Positions 710 through 25,126 are shown, numbered from the stretch's first letter. The stretch: 25,290 nucleotides of DNA from a virus (IMGVR_UViG_3300042275_000481:102172-127461); one strand, 5' to 3'. Program-made: numbers and translations. The notes: generated by a model from the letters alone, not told the origin.

Positions 710-1717
710 CTAACTTCTAGACATTTCTTTAATAATTTTTCCATCTTTTATTAAAGTAATATCCATGCTTTCGATAGTCGTTGAACTTTCATTGAAAAAT
801 TCGTTTAAAATATTATCTAAATTATCTTTTTCCCAATAAGGGATTCTAAGAAGTGTGGTATTTTTATCTTTACAATAGTTATTCTTTATACCATCATTTC
901 TTTTAGTTGCTAAATATTTTTCTTTTGTATATATACCTCTGAAGTTTCCATAAAAATGAAAATTTCCATCATATTCTATTAATGATATCACATTATTATC
1001 TGAATCTAAAATTGCAATATCAAATGGTAAATATTTTTGATATTTACAATCTTTAAATATATACTGTGTTTCAAATCTAATATTATTATCATTCAAATAT
1101 TTAGCAATAGATCTTTCACCAGTAGATCTAATTTTTCTTTTCTTATCACAAACAGGACACTTACCATCTTTAAGAAATTTTACAGGTTTAACATTAAACT
1201 CATATCCACATTTATTATGTTTCATTTTTATATATGTTAAATTTGTTTTATATTCTCCTAATACAGTAAAAGAATTTTTATATTTTTCAACAACTTCTTT
1301 TTTAAATTGAGATGTTGTTTTTTTAGGAGTTCCGTAACAATGTGGACATCCTGTACCTTTTTTCGTTCCTGTGCCTGCAAAATTTAAAGCATTTGTAGAA
1401 AATGTTTTTCCACAAATATTATGTCTAATAGTTATTTCTTTTCCTAAACCTCTATACTCAGAAATAACATCATAATCTGTACCATGTTCTTTTAAAATTC
1501 TTTCTTCATATTCCTTATGAGTAAGTTTTCTATTTCCAGTACAGTTCGGACATGTTTGAAATCTTAGAAAAACATCTGGTGTTGTTTTTCATTTATAACC
1601 ACATTCTAGACACTCAAACTCAATTTTAGTTTTAGTGTTTTTATATGGTTCATTTGTTTTAATTTTATTAGATAATATTCTTTTTTGAAATTCTTTTTCT
1701 GTCATCTTTTTTGGCAT
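710..1717 (-). CDS. Intron-encoded homing endonuclease: three Zn-ribbon repeats plus Vsr-like/EDxHD PD-(D/E)XK domain; 335 aa if TGA=Trp
   Basis: RBS AAGGAGG, ATG at 1717, one in-frame TGA at 1589-1591 (CGYK*KTTP), then continuous into the listed 171-aa ORF. Repeated CG.(W/F)...CPxC units and FDIAIL...IEYDGNFH. Confidence 0.85.
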
Positions 1718-1864
1718 AAGAATTTCCTCCTTTTTCAATGCTTAGCTGCTGATTGCCCAATCTTTCAAATTTTTAAACATTCACGCTTATCTTTACAGAT
1801 TACGTTGTAGTTTTGAAAGCTCTAAGGGGTTTCCAGCAATTAGAAGCGTTTTTCATTAGAACTT

Positions 1865-1876
1865 TAATTAATTGTT
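1865..1876 (-). promoter_or_regulatory. AACA-N6-TA late-promoter-like motif inside the intron, upstream of the intron endonuclease
   Basis: AACAattaatTA. Confidence 0.6.
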
Positions 1877-1901
1877 CTAAATCAGGGACTATATTTTTTT
1901 A

Positions 1902-2359
1902 ATCCCATAATAGGAGTTAGCTAGCACTTTATATGTTAACTGTAGAATCTTGTAGTATATATACTGGTCTGAGCCGTATGGACTCGCTTCCATTTTCTTT
2001 TTATATACTTTACGAGAGTCTAGTAGAAATTTAAGTGCCATCGAACCGATATTTACCGAGTTCTTTTGGTCTTTGTATAATACTGCGTATCCAGATAAGA
2101 TATATTCAGTATTTAGGAATAAGTCGATAAACTGTTCCTGTGTCATCACAAGATTTTCGTTACTGGTATTTGAATATAAACGTCCGTTAGCTAAACGGCG
2201 TTGCTCATATTTTGACAAGAGTAATTGTTTAAGTTCTTCGTTGCTTACTTCTTCTTTTGTATATATCTTCCTCAATCGTGAGAACTGTTCTTTGAGCCAT
2301 AACTGTTTGAAGGTTATATGTTTAGAATAGTCTCTATTTTTTCTAATTTCCAAATTCAT
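1902..2359 (-). CDS. Family B DNA polymerase (phiKZ/AR9-type), exon 1
   Basis: RBS GAGGAG then ATG at 2359. Encodes SGY..LY, R..YKKKM and motif B QLTYKVLANSYYG. The frame runs into a group I intron after GGG AT. Confidence 0.9.
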
Positions 2360-2383
2360 CGTGTCACTCCTCGTTGTCAATTT

Positions 2384-2923
2384 TTATTTCAGCATAAGCC
2401 ATAGATAAATATCTTCTGGTAGATTTGGATTCATTCTTAAATCTGTGTAACAACATTCCATTTCTTTGATTCTATCTTCTGTATTCATATCTCTAATTCC
2501 ATACAGAAAATCTTCAAAACCAGTGAGTAATTTTGCTACATCGTCTAAGTCAAGTTGGTCGTAGTCAGTGAATACTAGTTCATATACTCTCATATCTAGC
2601 ATATACACTAATCCGTAAACTTCTCCCTCTACTTCTACCTCTTCATATTCATAGTCACTTTCTGTTAAAATACGTCTTTCTTTAAATAATATATTAAGTC
2701 GTCTATCATAATCAATAGTTCCTTTTTTCTTAAAGAATGAAATATAAAGTTTTTGTATTTCGTACATAGGTGAAATATATTTATCAATTTGAAAATAAAC
2801 AGAATCATCTTTAAGATAGTTATCTATAAGCGGAGAATTATTAATATAATCCGAAACTACTCTTTCCAACAACTCATCATCATTAAAATACATGTCAATA
2901 ACTTCTTGCATAGCTAGTTTCAT
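2384..2923 (-). CDS. Hypothetical acidic protein, 179 aa
   Basis: ORF with AAAGGAG RBS, tightly packed in the operon upstream of the polymerase; no family recognised. Confidence 0.8.
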   Translation of the reverse strand: MKLAMQEVIDMYFNDDELLERVVSDYINNSPLIDNYLKDDSVYFQIDKYISPMYEIQKLYISFFKKKGTIDYDRRLNILFKERRILTESDYEYEEVEVEGEVYGLVYMLDMRVYELVFTDYDQLDLDDVAKLLTGFEDFLYGIRDMNTEDRIKEMECCYTDLRMNPNLPEDIYLWLMLK

Positions 2924-2940
2924 ATAATTCTCCTTTCTTA

Positions 2941-22498: not shown

Positions 22499-22526
22499 TT
22501 TTTAGACCTCCTTATTGTATCTGTAA

Positions 22527-22538
22527 TAAAAATTTGTT
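22527..22538 (-). promoter_or_regulatory. AACA-N6-TA motif upstream of the 22498 gene
   Basis: AACAaattttTA. Confidence 0.65.
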
Positions 22539-22554
22539 GAAAATTTTTTAAATA

Positions 22555-22586
22555 TTAAAAAAAGTAATTCCTTGAAGGAATTACTT
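22555..22586 (-). terminator. Terminator overlapping the stop of the 184-aa gene
   Basis: AAGTAATTCCT/AGGAATTACTT stem with a U-run on the minus strand. Confidence 0.8.
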
Positions 22587-23135
22587 AATTAGTGAAATAA
22601 GGTCATTGTAATCTTTAATTTCTCTGTTCTTAGTAGCTAATTTAGAATTAAATTGTGCCACTTGACCAGCTTTGCTTGCATATGCTGAAAGTTTCGATTG
22701 AAGTGTATTAAGACTTCCCATTAATTCAGCAAATTTAGCAGACTGACTTTCACCTGTTAAGATAAATTCAGGGTATTTGTTTTTTAAGATTTCTTGTGTT
22801 TTCAACTCTGCGTATATATCGAAGAAATTAAATGCTTCTAGATTAATAGCAGCAGCTGCAACACCCTTATTATATTTTTGTTGAAGTGAAGTTAAAGCAT
22901 CTTTTTTGACAGCTGGAGATGCAATAATACTCAAATCGTGTTGAATCATATTTTTTACTGCATTGAAGTTTTCTTCTGAATAAAACACTGCCATTTCCTT
23001 AATTGCAGATTTTAATAGAACTTGTCTTTTCAAGCCTTTAAGTAATTTCTTACCTTGTTTAAGTGCATCATCTGCACTAGCTATCTCAACTAGCTTTTTA
23101 CTTTTAGCTTGTAAATCTTTTAGAAATTTATCCAT
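22581..23135 (-). CDS. Hypothetical helical protein, 184 aa
   Basis: Own late-promoter motif, AGGAG RBS and terminator. Confidence 0.78.
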   Translation of the reverse strand: MDKFLKDLQAKSKKLVEIASADDALKQGKKLLKGLKRQVLLKSAIKEMAVFYSEENFNAVKNMIQHDLSIIASPAVKKDALTSLQQKYNKGVAAAAINLEAFNFFDIYAELKTQEILKNKYPEFILTGESQSAKFAELMGSLNTLQSKLSAYASKAGQVAQFNSKLATKNREIKDYNDLISLIK

Positions 23136-23167
23136 ATTTACACACTCCTTATAGTCGTATTCACATA

Positions 23168-23179
23168 TAATTAATTGTT
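23168..23179 (-). promoter_or_regulatory. AACA-N6-TA motif upstream of the 23135 gene
   Basis: AACAattaatTAtatgtg. Confidence 0.72.
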
Positions 23180-25126
23180 CTACTTGTTCAAATCGAGAAT
23201 CTGATTAATCAATGCTGAACGAGATTTGTTTTCTTGGAGCTTTTCAGTTCTTTCTCTAATATAATCAAATGCCTGGGTATTAACGCTTGCTAAATCGTCC
23301 ATCTTATTTGCTTGTCCAATAATAGACTCAATTCTTCGTATATCTTCTGAAGATGAAACTGTTTTGACATTGCTTGTCGATGGCATAGGGCTTATTTTGA
23401 ACTTTTTCTGTAAATTGGTTCCAAAGTGAAGCGCCCATCTGAAAATTAAATATGACATCAAGTTATCATCGTGTTCGCCTTCAGCATGTTCGATCTTACC
23501 ATTTGGTTTCTTTTCTAGTGTTTGAATATCTTTATATAATCTTCTTGAAACGATTTTGTCATATTCATAATCAACGATTTCAGGAAGTACATCAAACATC
23601 TGGTTACGTGTTACTCTATTTGTCTCTACACCATAAACGATAGCTTTCGTATTTTTCTTAACAGTAAACCCATCTTTTTGAGTTTTTTCACCTTTTTTGA
23701 CACGTTCTTCTCTATACATACGCGGTTCTATGATTCTATCTTTCATAAGATTATGAACGATATTTAGACCATAACTGTTGCGCTCTACAATTAGAATAGC
23801 GTTTCTAAACCAAGTGTGCATAAGCTCTTTTATTAGTTCTCTGAAGCTGTCTGTGTCAATAACATTACTTACAAACTCACCAACAACTCGGAAGTCATCA
23901 GGAGCAATGATTGTAATAACCGACCTGTCTCGGCTCAGACCACCTGCAACGTCACAACTTAGTATATAGTTTACTTTTAAGTCAGGTGTCTCAAAGAAAT
24001 CAACTGCATAACCATTAACAAAGATAGATGTGACTGGATCCTTAAGGAACTCGAATATCTTGTCTAATTGTTTTTCGTCAAATACTGAGGTCTCAGTTGA
24101 ACGAGGTCATTCAAGTAGTATCTCACGTTTAATTTTAGCCTCATTTCCTTGCATAAGCCTAAGCTGAGTTTTAAGTCACTTATCACTATGACCAAGTTCT
24201 TTATATGTAAATTCAACATGAAGGAAACTGTTTTCTGAATTCTTTTCAATATATTCCTCTAATTCTGGGTCTGTCATGTCAAAACACTCTAAACGCCATC
24301 TTGCAGCGTTATCAATGAATAGTTTTGCATATGCTCCTTGTTTTGTATCTACGTTATTTGGTGTTGTTGTAATAGTAATGCCATATGGAACACCGTTAGC
24401 CTTAGCATTCTTAGACGCTGCTGACCATGCAGGAAGGGCTGCTTCATATATAATATTATTTCTTGAGAGGAAGGCAAACTCATCAAAGTATATGTTAGAG
24501 GTTGTCATACCACGGCCAAGTTTATCAGCAGCTTCATCACTATTTGCAGCAGGCATTGCTTTTAATGTATTATTTCTATTAAATATAAGTTTTTCTTCAA
24601 TGTTATCACGATCTTTATGATTTGCAACCATACCAACTAACCATTGAGGGAGTCTCTCTTTAAGGTCTTTAAATTTCTTTAATGCGTCTTTACTATCTTT
24701 AAATTCTTTATTTGAGTATATAATATTAGTATTGGTACCAGCAAATAATAGAATCCAACTGTCATAGGCAATCTCTCCAATTGTTTTACCATGCTGACGT
24801 GGAAGAATAGTAATCTGATTCTTATTTTTTGTTTTAATATATGTTAGAGACATATTTCCAAGATTTAGTTTATATGGAATACCGTCAATTTGACCATCAA
24901 CAGGAATTCTTACAACTTCTCTTAAATAATACCATATATTAACTGTACACTCTTCAAATATTTCCAGTTTTTGTTTGTTTGTTAGATTCTTAGAATGAGG
25001 GTCCACTCCAACTAAACTCTCATTATGCAGCACTAGCATAAATTTGTTATTCTTTACATTACGCTTTCTTAGGTCTACTGAGGTTTTCAGAAAAGACCTA
25101 TTACGTGTGCTTATATCATAAATCAT
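23180..25126 (-). CDS. terL: Terminase large subunit, 648 aa with two in-frame TGA (24176, 24107) read as Trp
   Basis: ATPase part: ILPRQHGKT (Walker A), IYFDEFAF (Walker B), ITTTPN. Nuclease part: SCDVAGG, IVERNSYG, HDDNLMS. Single frame with no TAA/TAG. RBS GAAGGTGA before the ATG at 25126. Confidence 0.93.

What the first reader, a model, noticed from the sequence alone, without database searches (positions are those of the whole stretch)
1589..24178. UGA appears reassigned to tryptophan in an AR9/phiKZ-like jumbo phage
Seen: eight in-frame TGA codons (1589, 6617, 7061, 7085, 19090, 22079, 24107, 24176; all minus strand) break five otherwise intact genes. I found no TAA/TAG breaks or frameshifts in genes other than at the intron. 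Every credible gene whose end I checked stops at TAA or TAG, and each TGA-ended ORF extends cleanly. Several TGA sit where Trp is expected (GIY-YIG HF*NSIQKYG*ENF and KGHK*EY; Zn-ribbon CGYK* versus CGYEW in the paralog at 12553). TGG remains the main Trp codon (roughly 48 by hand count versus 8 TGA). Known: UGA=Trp (table 4) occurs in Mycoplasmatales/Entomoplasmatales and in some gut phages of standard-code hosts. Inference: either the host uses table 4 or the phage recodes UGA itself. The low TGA share would be atypical for an AT-rich table-4 cell and suggests a recent or phage-driven reassignment.
Basis: partly seen in the sequence, partly recalled or inferred. Interest (0 to 1): 0.92.

Follow-up and report, generated by a model that had tools for sequence, protein, structure and literature searches.

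The report
Phage reads TGA as tryptophan late
This uncultivated relative of the giant Bacillus phage AR9 spells tryptophan with the stop codon TGA in genes behind late promoters, while TGA probably still ends early genes; this late-gene recoding is a known phage habit, here at an early stage in a phage group where I found no earlier report of it.

Summary
Observation confirmed. All eight TGAs sit at the stated minus-strand coordinates. The window's genes hold 49 TGG and 8 TGA, and every other long ORF ends in TAA or TAG. Three of the sites are identical in 6 to 9 independently assembled contigs from other samples.

TGA means tryptophan. In the large terminase, TGA and TGG swap at conserved Trp columns among three related lineages and AR9. 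Across the clade, the codon opposite TGA is most often TGG.

The window is the end of a 127-kb contig, about 49% of an AR9-like genome. The contig has about 20 credible internal TGAs in 13 genes. Twelve of those genes lie in units headed by an AR9-type late promoter; the terminase promoter is undetermined. Early-promoter units have 0 TGA against 79 TGG. A sister lineage repeats the pattern.

Near-terminal TGAs in early-type genes (ATGA stop-start overlaps, one TGA-TAA tandem) suggest that TGA still terminates early genes. This favours a phage-driven late switch in a standard-code host over a table-4 host.

No tRNA, release factor or TrpRS was found, so the decoding agent is unknown.

This is a new member of a known kind (Borges et al.). 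This scan has noted the same kind of TGA-to-Trp late-gene recoding in at least 70 other genomes.

The parts
23180..25126 (-). Large terminase subunit gene. The likely start is the ATG at 25126; the ORF opens at a TTG at 25189. It has in-frame TGAs at 24176-24178 (aa 338) and 24107-24109 (aa 361).
   Evidence: Pfam Terminase_6N and PHROG terminase hits span both TGAs. It is 41% identical to Bacillus phage BpSp and AR9 TerL. Both TGAs align with W in AR9, and with TGG or TGA in relatives G002 and G003. The same TGAs occur in 9 contigs from other samples.
21695..22498 (-). Conserved 267-aa protein of unknown function, with an in-frame TGA at 22079-22081 (aa 140).
   Evidence: The alignment runs without a break across the TGA, at 72% identity over 266 aa, to the orthologue in L008/L009. 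That orthologue has Val at this non-conserved column. The TGA is present in 6 contigs from other samples. The gene lies in the unit behind the late motif at 23168-23179.
19003..19341 (-). 112-aa ORF with a TGA at 19090-19092 (aa 84). It is not decided whether this TGA is a sense codon or a stop.
   Evidence: There is no Pfam, PHROG or clade homologue, and the gene is absent from the sister lineage G002. The read-through tail of 29 codons overlaps the next gene by 32 nt.
6602..7243 (-). GIY-YIG/NUMOD homing endonuclease gene with three in-frame TGAs (7085, 7061, 6617) and one TGG.
   Evidence: Pfam GIY-YIG, NUMOD3 and I-HmuI NUMOD-like; PHROG homing endonuclease. Two of the three TGAs align with W in the L010 homologue (KYGWENFEH, KGYKWKY) and the third aligns with A. 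A late motif lies at 7268-7279, directly upstream.
710..1717 (-). Zinc-ribbon plus Vsr-like homing endonuclease gene, lying between two DNA-polymerase exons, with a TGA at 1589-1591.
   Evidence: PHROG 559/681 and Pfam DUF4379 hits span the TGA. The site reads CGYK-TGA-K, against CGYEW in the paralogue at 12553 and CNYEWK in AR9. A late motif lies at 1865-1876 upstream. The flanking ORFs 2-553 and 1889-2380 match AR9 DNA polymerase gp151.
23168..23179 (-). AR9-type late promoter motif AACAATTAATTA. It heads the unit that contains the 267-aa TGA gene.
   Evidence: The motif AACAATWWATWA occurs 8 times in the window against 0.5 expected. It fits the AR9 late consensus AACA-N6-TA (PMC5312081).
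20532..20543 (-). Late promoter motif heading the unit that contains the 112-aa ORF.
7268..7279 (-). Late promoter motif directly upstream of the GIY-YIG endonuclease gene.
1865..1876 (-). Late promoter motif about 150 nt upstream of the zinc-ribbon endonuclease gene.
4117..4126 (-). AR9-type early promoter core ATATATTAT. It heads the TGA-free unit that runs into the DNA polymerase exons.
   Evidence: AR9 early consensus AAATATATATTAT-N6-G
12553..14076 (-). Paralogous zinc-ribbon homing endonuclease with early-type motifs upstream (14296-14305 and 14342-14351). It has 7 TGG and 0 TGA and serves as an internal control.
10739..12514 (+). Major capsid protein gene, with 6 TGG and no TGA. The abundant late proteins avoid TGA.
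   Evidence: 36% identical to AR9 gp116; Pfam Gp23; codon counts

Best explanation
The window is the end of a half-genome contig of an uncultivated AR9-like phage that carries its own virion and non-virion RNA polymerases. In this phage and its closest relatives, UGA is translated as tryptophan in genes transcribed from AR9-type late promoters. These genes include the terminase, minor virion proteins and, above all, homing endonuclease genes with their own late promoters. Genes in early-promoter units contain no in-frame TGA and probably still use TGA as a terminator. The most likely mechanism is the one proposed for other alternatively coded phages. The host uses the standard code. Early genes are readable by the unmodified host apparatus. 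Later in infection, a phage product makes UGA readable as Trp; this is most likely a UCA-anticodon suppressor tRNA, perhaps helped by release-factor manipulation. TGA-bearing late genes can therefore only be completed late. What is shown: TGA sites are real; they align with Trp; and they partition by promoter class in two lineages. What is inferred: the timing, because promoter classes are assigned by analogy with AR9; the standard-code host; and the decoding agent, which was not found and would have to lie in the unsequenced half of the genome.
For: TGA = Trp. In TerL, TGA and TGG interchange at conserved W columns among G000, L008/L009 and L010, and AR9 has W at both window sites. Clade-wide, the codon opposite TGA is TGG 17 times, against F/Y/L/V/I/T 10 times. 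In L063 a TGA aligns with TGG-W in two orthologues.

TGA is not a general stop. There are 0-1 credible TGA stops among 126 genes, against 29 of 277 in AR9. The apparent TGA stop at contig position 13752 lies inside a group I intron.

Partition by promoter class. Both AR9 promoter types are present. Late units have 18 TGA and 92 TGG; early units have 0 and 79 (Fisher p = 5e-5 by codon, 1e-3 by gene). Counting only the first gene behind each promoter gives 14/29 against 0/30 (p = 4e-4). Among endonuclease paralogues, late-promoter copies have 11 TGA and 4 TGG, and the other copies have 0 and 15 (p = 5e-5). The sister lineage gives 16/34 against 0/26 (p = 7e-4).

TGA as a stop in early-type genes. 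At contig 96496 a TGA sits in an ATGA stop-start overlap. It is conserved in L065. The tails after it are not conserved, and the L063 orthologue ends in TAA there. In L065, a gene behind a perfect early promoter ends TGA-TAA. More distant relatives use TGA stops with ATGA overlaps at ordinary rates.

Published model: 10.1101/2021.08.26.457843.
Against: No tRNA turned up with ARAGORN or Rfam, even at permissive thresholds. No RF1/RF2 domain or TrpRS was found in the 127-kb contig either. The roughly 110 kb of sister-lineage sequence had no tRNA.

Promoter classes rest on motif analogy with AR9, not on transcript data. The result depends on how the motif is defined: a different regular expression put three endonuclease genes into early units and weakened the test to p = 0.004.

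Outside the homing endonuclease genes the contrast in this contig is weak: 6 TGA and 81 TGG against 0 and 76, p = 0.03.

The terminase promoter class is undetermined. The host is unknown. The early status of the gene with the terminal TGA is inferred from its neighbours; its nearest upstream same-strand motif is a late one, 6.9 kb away.
Confidence: 0.62

Rival explanations
1. The host itself uses table 4 (UGA = Trp, no RF2), as in Mycoplasmatales within the Bacilli. The phage simply follows its host and needs no decoding factor of its own.
For: No suppressor tRNA, release factor or TrpRS was found in 127 kb of this phage, and no tRNA in about 110 kb of the sister lineage. The genome is AT-rich, at 31.6% GC. 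AR9-like phages infect Bacillota.
Against: Early-promoter units have 0 TGA among 79 Trp codons, while late units have 18 of 110. The sister lineage shows the same pattern. TGA sits at natural C-termini of early-type genes in ATGA overlaps or as a TGA-TAA tandem. Relatives at 58-63% identity use TGA stops routinely. TGA makes up only about 9% of Trp codons, whereas (from general knowledge) AT-rich table-4 cells prefer TGA. About 80% of gene starts have a strong Shine-Dalgarno site, although starts were chosen partly by that criterion.
Confidence: 0.13
2. No dedicated suppressor exists. The TGAs are leaky stops read at low to moderate efficiency by the host's ordinary tRNA-Trp(CCA). UGA read-through of this kind is, from my own knowledge, known in Bacillus subtilis. 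A phage factor that weakens RF2 late in infection might boost it.
For: No tRNA was found (calls as above). TGAs are absent from the most abundant late proteins. In this phage the capsid has 6 TGG and the protease 3 TGG with no TGA; in the sister lineage the sheath has 6 TGG. TGAs concentrate in low-copy enzymes, namely the terminase and the endonucleases.
Against: The sister lineage's terminase needs five read-throughs, and other proteins there need four, which leaky decoding would make vanishingly rare. TGA stops are purged genome-wide, as expected if read-through is efficient.
Confidence: 0.15
3. The TGAs are inactivating mutations, sequencing errors, or codons for another residue (Gly as in table 25, or selenocysteine).
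For: Five of the 13 TGA-bearing genes are homing endonuclease genes, a class that often decays. One site (19090) has no homologue.
Against: All interruptions are TGA; none is TAA, TAG or a frameshift. Frames stay open and homology continues across the TGAs. TGA and TGG swap at Trp columns, and no Gly or Cys is seen opposite TGA. The sites are identical in up to 9 contigs from other samples.
Confidence: 0.03

Closest known systems
Alternatively coded (code 4, TGA to Trp) gut and rumen phages: the Jade, Sapphire and Agate clades of Borges et al. (bioRxiv 10.1101/2021.08.26.457843)
   Same: In-frame TGA at Trp positions. Recoding is concentrated in late, structural genes, while early or replication genes stay compatible with the standard code. 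TGA is depleted as a stop. Close relatives differ in how much TGA they use. The proposed role is a late-phase code switch in standard-code hosts.
   Different: Only about 10% of genes carry TGA here, against the 26-71% reported for those clades. No suppressor tRNA, RF1 or TrpRS was found in the available half. The phage belongs to the AR9 lineage, with its own two RNA polymerases, so the early/late split can be read from promoter motifs. Homing endonuclease genes are the most recoded class. I could not test whether this lineage falls inside one of the named clades.
Bacillus phage AR9 / PBS1 (Takahashivirus) and Bacillus phage BpSp
   Same: Terminase is 38-41% identical. Capsid, protease, virion proteins, split virion and non-virion RNA polymerase subunits and intron-split DNA polymerase are shared. 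Both promoter types are shared: early AAATATATATTAT-N6-G and late AACA-N6-TA. Homing endonuclease genes with their own promoters occur inside introns.
   Different: AR9 uses the standard code and ends about 10% of its ORFs in TGA. It has no in-frame TGA in its terminase.
Table 4 of Mycoplasmatales and Entomoplasmatales and their phages
   Same: UGA is decoded as tryptophan.
   Different: In those organisms the reassignment is genome-wide and TGA is the preferred Trp codon (general knowledge). Here TGA is about 9% of Trp codons, is absent from early units, and apparently still terminates some genes.
TGA-recoded crAss-like phages (Zeta group; PMC7886860, PMC12386605)
   Same: Late-gene TGA recoding in large uncultivated phages. 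According to unchecked earlier notes of this scan, their suppressor tRNAs can escape standard finders.
   Different: That phage order is unrelated and infects Bacteroidota. Those genomes do carry identifiable suppressor tRNAs.

Membership tests
Alternatively coded (code 4) phage with late-gene recoding | In-frame TGA in otherwise intact, conserved genes, with no TAA/TAG breaks or frameshifts | tested here: met
   Eight sites in the window and about 20 in 13 genes of the contig. Homology continues across them.
Alternatively coded (code 4) phage with late-gene recoding | TGA columns align with tryptophan in homologues | tested here: met
   Opposite TGA, TGG occurs 17 times, the rest are mostly F, Y or L, and no G or C is seen. 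Against AR9: W 5-6, Y 2, F 2, V 1, P 1. TerL columns are shown.
Alternatively coded (code 4) phage with late-gene recoding | TGA depleted or absent as a terminator | tested here: met
   0-1 TGA stops among 126 genes, against 29 of 277 in AR9; P = 1.4e-5.
Alternatively coded (code 4) phage with late-gene recoding | Recoding biased to late genes, with early genes readable by the standard code | tested here: met
   Late units 18 TGA / 92 TGG against early units 0 / 79. Replicated in the sister lineage. Classes were assigned by AR9-type promoter motifs, not by expression data.
Alternatively coded (code 4) phage with late-gene recoding | Phage-encoded tRNA(UCA), with or without RF1 and TrpRS | tested here: inconclusive
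   None was found in the contig, which is 49% of the genome by CheckV. No tRNA was found in the relatives' fragments either.
Alternatively coded (code 4) phage with late-gene recoding | Host uses the standard code | not testable with these tools
   The host is unknown. There is only indirect support, from TGA stops in early-type genes.
AR9-like (Takahashivirus-related) jumbo phage | Homologous terminase, capsid and virion proteins | tested here: met
AR9-like (Takahashivirus-related) jumbo phage | Split multisubunit virion and non-virion RNA polymerase genes | tested here: met
   tblastn hits to AR9 gp269, gp263 and gp153 in the contig; in relatives, hits to AR9 gp225 (sister lineage, G002) and gp188 (G003).
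AR9-like (Takahashivirus-related) jumbo phage | Early AAATATATATTAT-N6-G and late AACA-N6-TA promoter motifs | tested here: met
AR9-like (Takahashivirus-related) jumbo phage | Genome longer than 200 kb | tested here: inconclusive
   The contig is 127,461 bp, linear, and 49% complete by CheckV. Sheath and tube genes lie beyond its end.
Phage of a table-4 (Mollicutes-type) host | TGA used for Trp in all gene classes and never as a stop | tested here: not met
   0 of 79 Trp codons in early units are TGA. Probable TGA stops occur in early-type genes of this phage and its relatives.

The most novel reading that the evidence does not exclude
This AR9-like clade switches UGA from stop to Trp late in infection without any canonical tRNA gene. 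Possible agents are a protein that disables RF2 or retunes host tRNA-Trp, or a non-canonical RNA such as the unexplained structured-RNA array at contig positions 11.4-12.9 kb. Homing endonucleases would exploit the switch to restrict their own expression to the late phase.
Probability: 0.1. Interest if true: 0.85.

Novelty: new member of a known kind. Interest (0 to 1): 0.4.

Why it matters
Annotation is the practical consequence. Pipelines that use table 11 cut the terminase, several virion proteins and five homing endonuclease genes of this phage into fragments. JGI gene calls on sister contigs do exactly that, while Logan calls read through.

There is also a biological point. AR9-like phages carry two polymerases with known early and late promoter motifs. 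In this lineage the link between promoter class and codon meaning can therefore be read from sequence and tested gene by gene. Paralogous endonuclease genes serve as internal controls. The low TGA share, set against a more heavily recoded sister lineage and standard-code cousins, captures early steps of a code change. Finding the decoding agent in the missing half would show whether this group uses the usual suppressor tRNA or something else.

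Tried and rejected
tRNA hunt. Rfam tRNA searches of the whole contig at E <= 1, and permissive all-family scans of every part of it, found only four group I introns.

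RF1/RF2 domains and TrpRS: none.

Reaching the missing half. Contigs from eight or more samples all stop about 450 nt beyond the tail-tube gene. Sister-lineage fragments add about 110 kb without a tRNA.

Relatives by single proteins in IMG/VR. Two queries found nothing, and a profile of the polymerase subunit found one contig.

Host clues. A genome-contig scan with the polymerase profile found nothing.

Megablast of the window against cultured phages: no match.

Rfam search for an intron around the endonuclease gene at window 450-2000: no hit, so the nature of that DNA-polymerase interruption is unresolved.

ORFs rejected as spurious TGA carriers:
- plus-strand ORFs in the RNA array (contig 11.4-12.1 kb);
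- ORFs over intron sequence (contig 71762 and 100349, which align to AR9 intron DNA with a stop at the same place);
- N-terminal extensions upstream of true starts;
- window 17614-17835 (-).

A looser late-promoter regular expression misclassified three endonuclease genes and was replaced by the weight-matrix sites.

Full report
**Where the window lies**

The window is bases 102172-127461 of a single linear IMG/VR virus contig. The contig is 127,461 bp long, has 31.6% GC and is rated 49% complete by CheckV. Its large terminase is 38-41% identical to those of the jumbo Bacillus phages BpSp, AR9 and PBS1.

A tblastn of all ORFs against the AR9 genome found many shared genes:
- capsid;
- prohead protease;
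- several virion proteins;
- subunits of both the virion and the non-virion RNA polymerase;
- helicase;
- a DNA polymerase split into at least three exons;
- many homing endonuclease genes.

The 'AR9-like' label is therefore sound. 'Jumbo' is inferred from the completeness estimate. It is also supported by the tail sheath and tube genes, which lie just beyond the contig end.

**The observation**

All eight coordinates carry TGA on the minus strand. Under table 11, 29 long ORFs of the window end in TAA or TAG. Four end in TGA, and each of these extends or fuses with the next ORF when TGA is read through.

The five genes are:
- the large terminase (two TGAs);
- a conserved 267-aa protein;
- a 112-aa ORF;
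- a GIY-YIG/NUMOD endonuclease (three TGAs);
- a zinc-ribbon endonuclease that sits between DNA-polymerase exons.

The window's genes hold 49 TGG and 8 TGA.

Exact 27-28-mers spanning three of the TGAs recur in 6 to 9 contigs assembled from other samples. Assembly error is therefore excluded.

AR9 uses the standard code and is even more AT-rich. It ends 29 of 277 ORFs in TGA. Against that rate, one or fewer credible TGA stops among the contig's 126 genes has P = 1.4e-5.

One window site remains open. The TGA at 19090 has no homologue, and its read-through tail overlaps the next gene.

**What TGA means**

The terminase gives the cleanest test.
- The window's two TGAs align with W in AR9.
- They align with TGG in the relative at 54% identity (L010/G003).
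- In the 72% relative (L008/L009/G002), one aligns with TGA and the other with TGG.
- That 72% relative has five TGAs of its own. Three fall where this phage has TGG, one where it has TGA, and one at a non-conserved column (Thr here, Leu in G003).

Across all orthologue pairs of the clade, the codon opposite TGA is TGG 17 times. Otherwise it is mostly Phe, Tyr or Leu, and never Gly or Cys. This is the same profile as for TGG itself.

A TGA in relative L063 aligns with TGG-Trp in two orthologues.

In the GIY-YIG gene, two of the three TGAs align with W in the homologue (KYGWENFEH, KGYKWKY).

TGA is therefore read as Trp. Table 25, selenocysteine and gene decay are excluded for practical purposes.

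**Whole-contig picture**

I removed the artefacts: ORF extensions upstream of true starts, ORFs over intron or RNA-gene sequence, and one ORF whose TGA lies inside a group I intron. About 20 internal TGAs in 13 genes remain, against roughly 210 TGG. Eleven of the 20 lie in five homing endonuclease genes.

**Early versus late**

AR9 has two experimentally defined promoter classes. The early class is AAATATATATTAT-N6-G and is read by the injected virion polymerase. The late class is AACA-N6-TA and is read by the non-virion polymerase (PMC5312081; AR9 sites).

Both motifs are over-represented in this contig, at the expected distance upstream of gene starts. The late consensus here is TGAACAATWAATTATATGAG. 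In the window the late motif occurs 8 times against 0.5 expected.

Classing each gene by the nearest upstream same-strand motif gives the following:

| Comparison | Late units (TGA / TGG) | Early units (TGA / TGG) | Fisher p |
|---|---|---|---|
| All codons | 18 / 92 | 0 / 79 | 5e-5 |
| By gene (genes with TGA / all genes) | 12 / 64 | 0 / 49 | 1e-3 |
| First gene behind each promoter only | 14 / 29 | 0 / 30 | 4e-4 |
| Excluding endonuclease genes | 6 / 81 | 0 / 76 | 0.03 |

Endonuclease paralogues form an internal control. Copies with only a late motif have 11 TGA and 4 TGG. The other copies have 0 TGA and 15 TGG (p = 5e-5).

Without the endonuclease genes the contrast in this contig alone is weak. 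However, the more heavily recoded sister lineage (G002, L070, L063) repeats the pattern, mostly in structural genes: 16 TGA and 34 TGG in late units against 0 and 26 in early units (p = 7e-4).

There are four limits. Classes come from motifs, not transcripts. A different motif definition weakened the test to p = 0.004. The terminase promoter is undetermined. Codons within one gene are not independent.

**Does TGA still stop translation?**

At contig position 96496, a gene of the replication and nucleotide-metabolism block ends in a TGA that overlaps the next gene's ATG (ATGA). The same TGA is present in relative L065. The sequences after it are unrelated: 15 codons in this phage and 2 codons in L065. 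The L063 orthologue ends with TAA a few residues earlier, in a TAATG overlap.

In L065, a gene directly behind a perfect early promoter ends TGA-TAA. A T-run and a late promoter for the next gene follow it.

In L063, guanylate kinase has a TGA two codons before its TAA.

Relatives at 58-63% identity use TGA stops with ATGA overlaps at ordinary frequency in the same early block.

Each case could formally be a C-terminal Trp. Together they indicate that TGA remains a terminator for early genes and that the ancestral state was the standard code.

**Mechanism**

The pattern matches the published model for alternatively coded phages. In that model the host uses the standard code. Early genes stay compatible with it, and a late change makes the recoded stop readable. 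Late genes then cannot be completed prematurely (10.1101/2021.08.26.457843).

The agent is missing here. No tRNA appeared at any threshold, and no release-factor domain or TrpRS was found in the contig. About 110 kb of sister-lineage sequence held no tRNA. Half the genome is unsequenced, so this is not evidence of absence.

The most abundant late proteins (capsid, protease, sheath) avoid TGA. That fits incomplete suppression or ordinary codon bias. Five TGAs in the sister lineage's terminase argue against mere leakiness.

A table-4 host is disfavoured on four grounds:
- early units have zero TGA;
- probable TGA stops occur in early-type genes;
- TGA is a low share of Trp codons;
- Shine-Dalgarno sites are strong and frequent (partly circular because starts were chosen partly by that criterion).

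**Novelty**

TGA-to-Trp recoding of late genes is described for several phage clades, including large ones. Earlier notes of this scan report it in at least 70 other genomes.

What this case adds:
- it lies in the AR9 lineage;
- the early/late split is readable from promoter motifs;
- endonuclease genes are the most recoded class;
- the stage is early, with about 10% of genes affected, flanked by a more recoded sister lineage and standard-code cousins.

I could not test whether the lineage belongs to one of the named clades. I rate it a new member of a known kind, of moderate interest.

Noticed in passing
window 2-553, 1889-2380; contig 99730-100389: The DNA polymerase (AR9 gp151 homologue) is split into at least three pieces, separated by homing endonuclease genes. 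Rfam finds a group I intron at contig 100409-100711 but none around the endonuclease gene in window 450-2000. The nature of that second interruption is therefore unresolved.
   Followed up: partly
L001:11300-12950 (contig 11.3-12.9 kb): This ORF-poor stretch was described in earlier notes as an array of structured RNAs. It has no Rfam match even at E <= 1 and no tRNA-like signal. Its function is unknown, and a link to UGA decoding is pure speculation.
   Followed up: partly
L073-L084 (beyond window end, past 25290): Contigs from eight or more samples all end about 450 nt downstream of the tail-tube gene, which follows the sheath gene lying divergent from the terminase. This could be a repeat, a hypervariable spot or a physical genome end.
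   Followed up: no
L073-L080: Public gene calls disagree on the same DNA. JGI calls split the terminase (287 + 213 aa) and the 267-aa protein (139 + 88 aa) at the TGAs. Logan calls give full-length products of 648 and 267 aa, evidently under a TGA-coding table.
   Followed up: yes
L001:13511-13776; L004:17400-17677 and 17852-18119; L006:10409-10711: There are four group I introns with strong Rfam scores. One splits the non-virion RNA polymerase beta-prime gene and accounts for an apparent TGA-terminated ORF at contig 13752-14762.
   Followed up: yes
L010/L012 with L061, L062 (relative with 54% terminase identity, 30.8 kb): This mostly late-gene region has no in-frame TGA and no TGA stop among 23 genes. 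Its only candidate TGA follows an exon of the virion polymerase beta gene, upstream of an endonuclease gene. This may be a lineage that has lost TGA stops but not yet gained TGA sense codons.
   Followed up: partly
L070:8105-9913: The sister lineage's GroEL-like chaperonin carries one in-frame TGA, where AR9 has Leu. From my memory, bacterial GroEL has Phe at that position (GMQFDRGY).
   Followed up: partly
window 25185-25196 (+): A late promoter motif points outward, across the contig end. It matches the late motif in front of the tail sheath gene in the sister lineage (G002 position 9693).
   Followed up: partly
window 17614-17835 (-): A 73-codon ORF with two TGAs appears only under table 4. 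It overlaps the plus-strand gene 17633-17839 and is probably spurious. Table-4 ORF lists therefore need pruning.
   Followed up: partly
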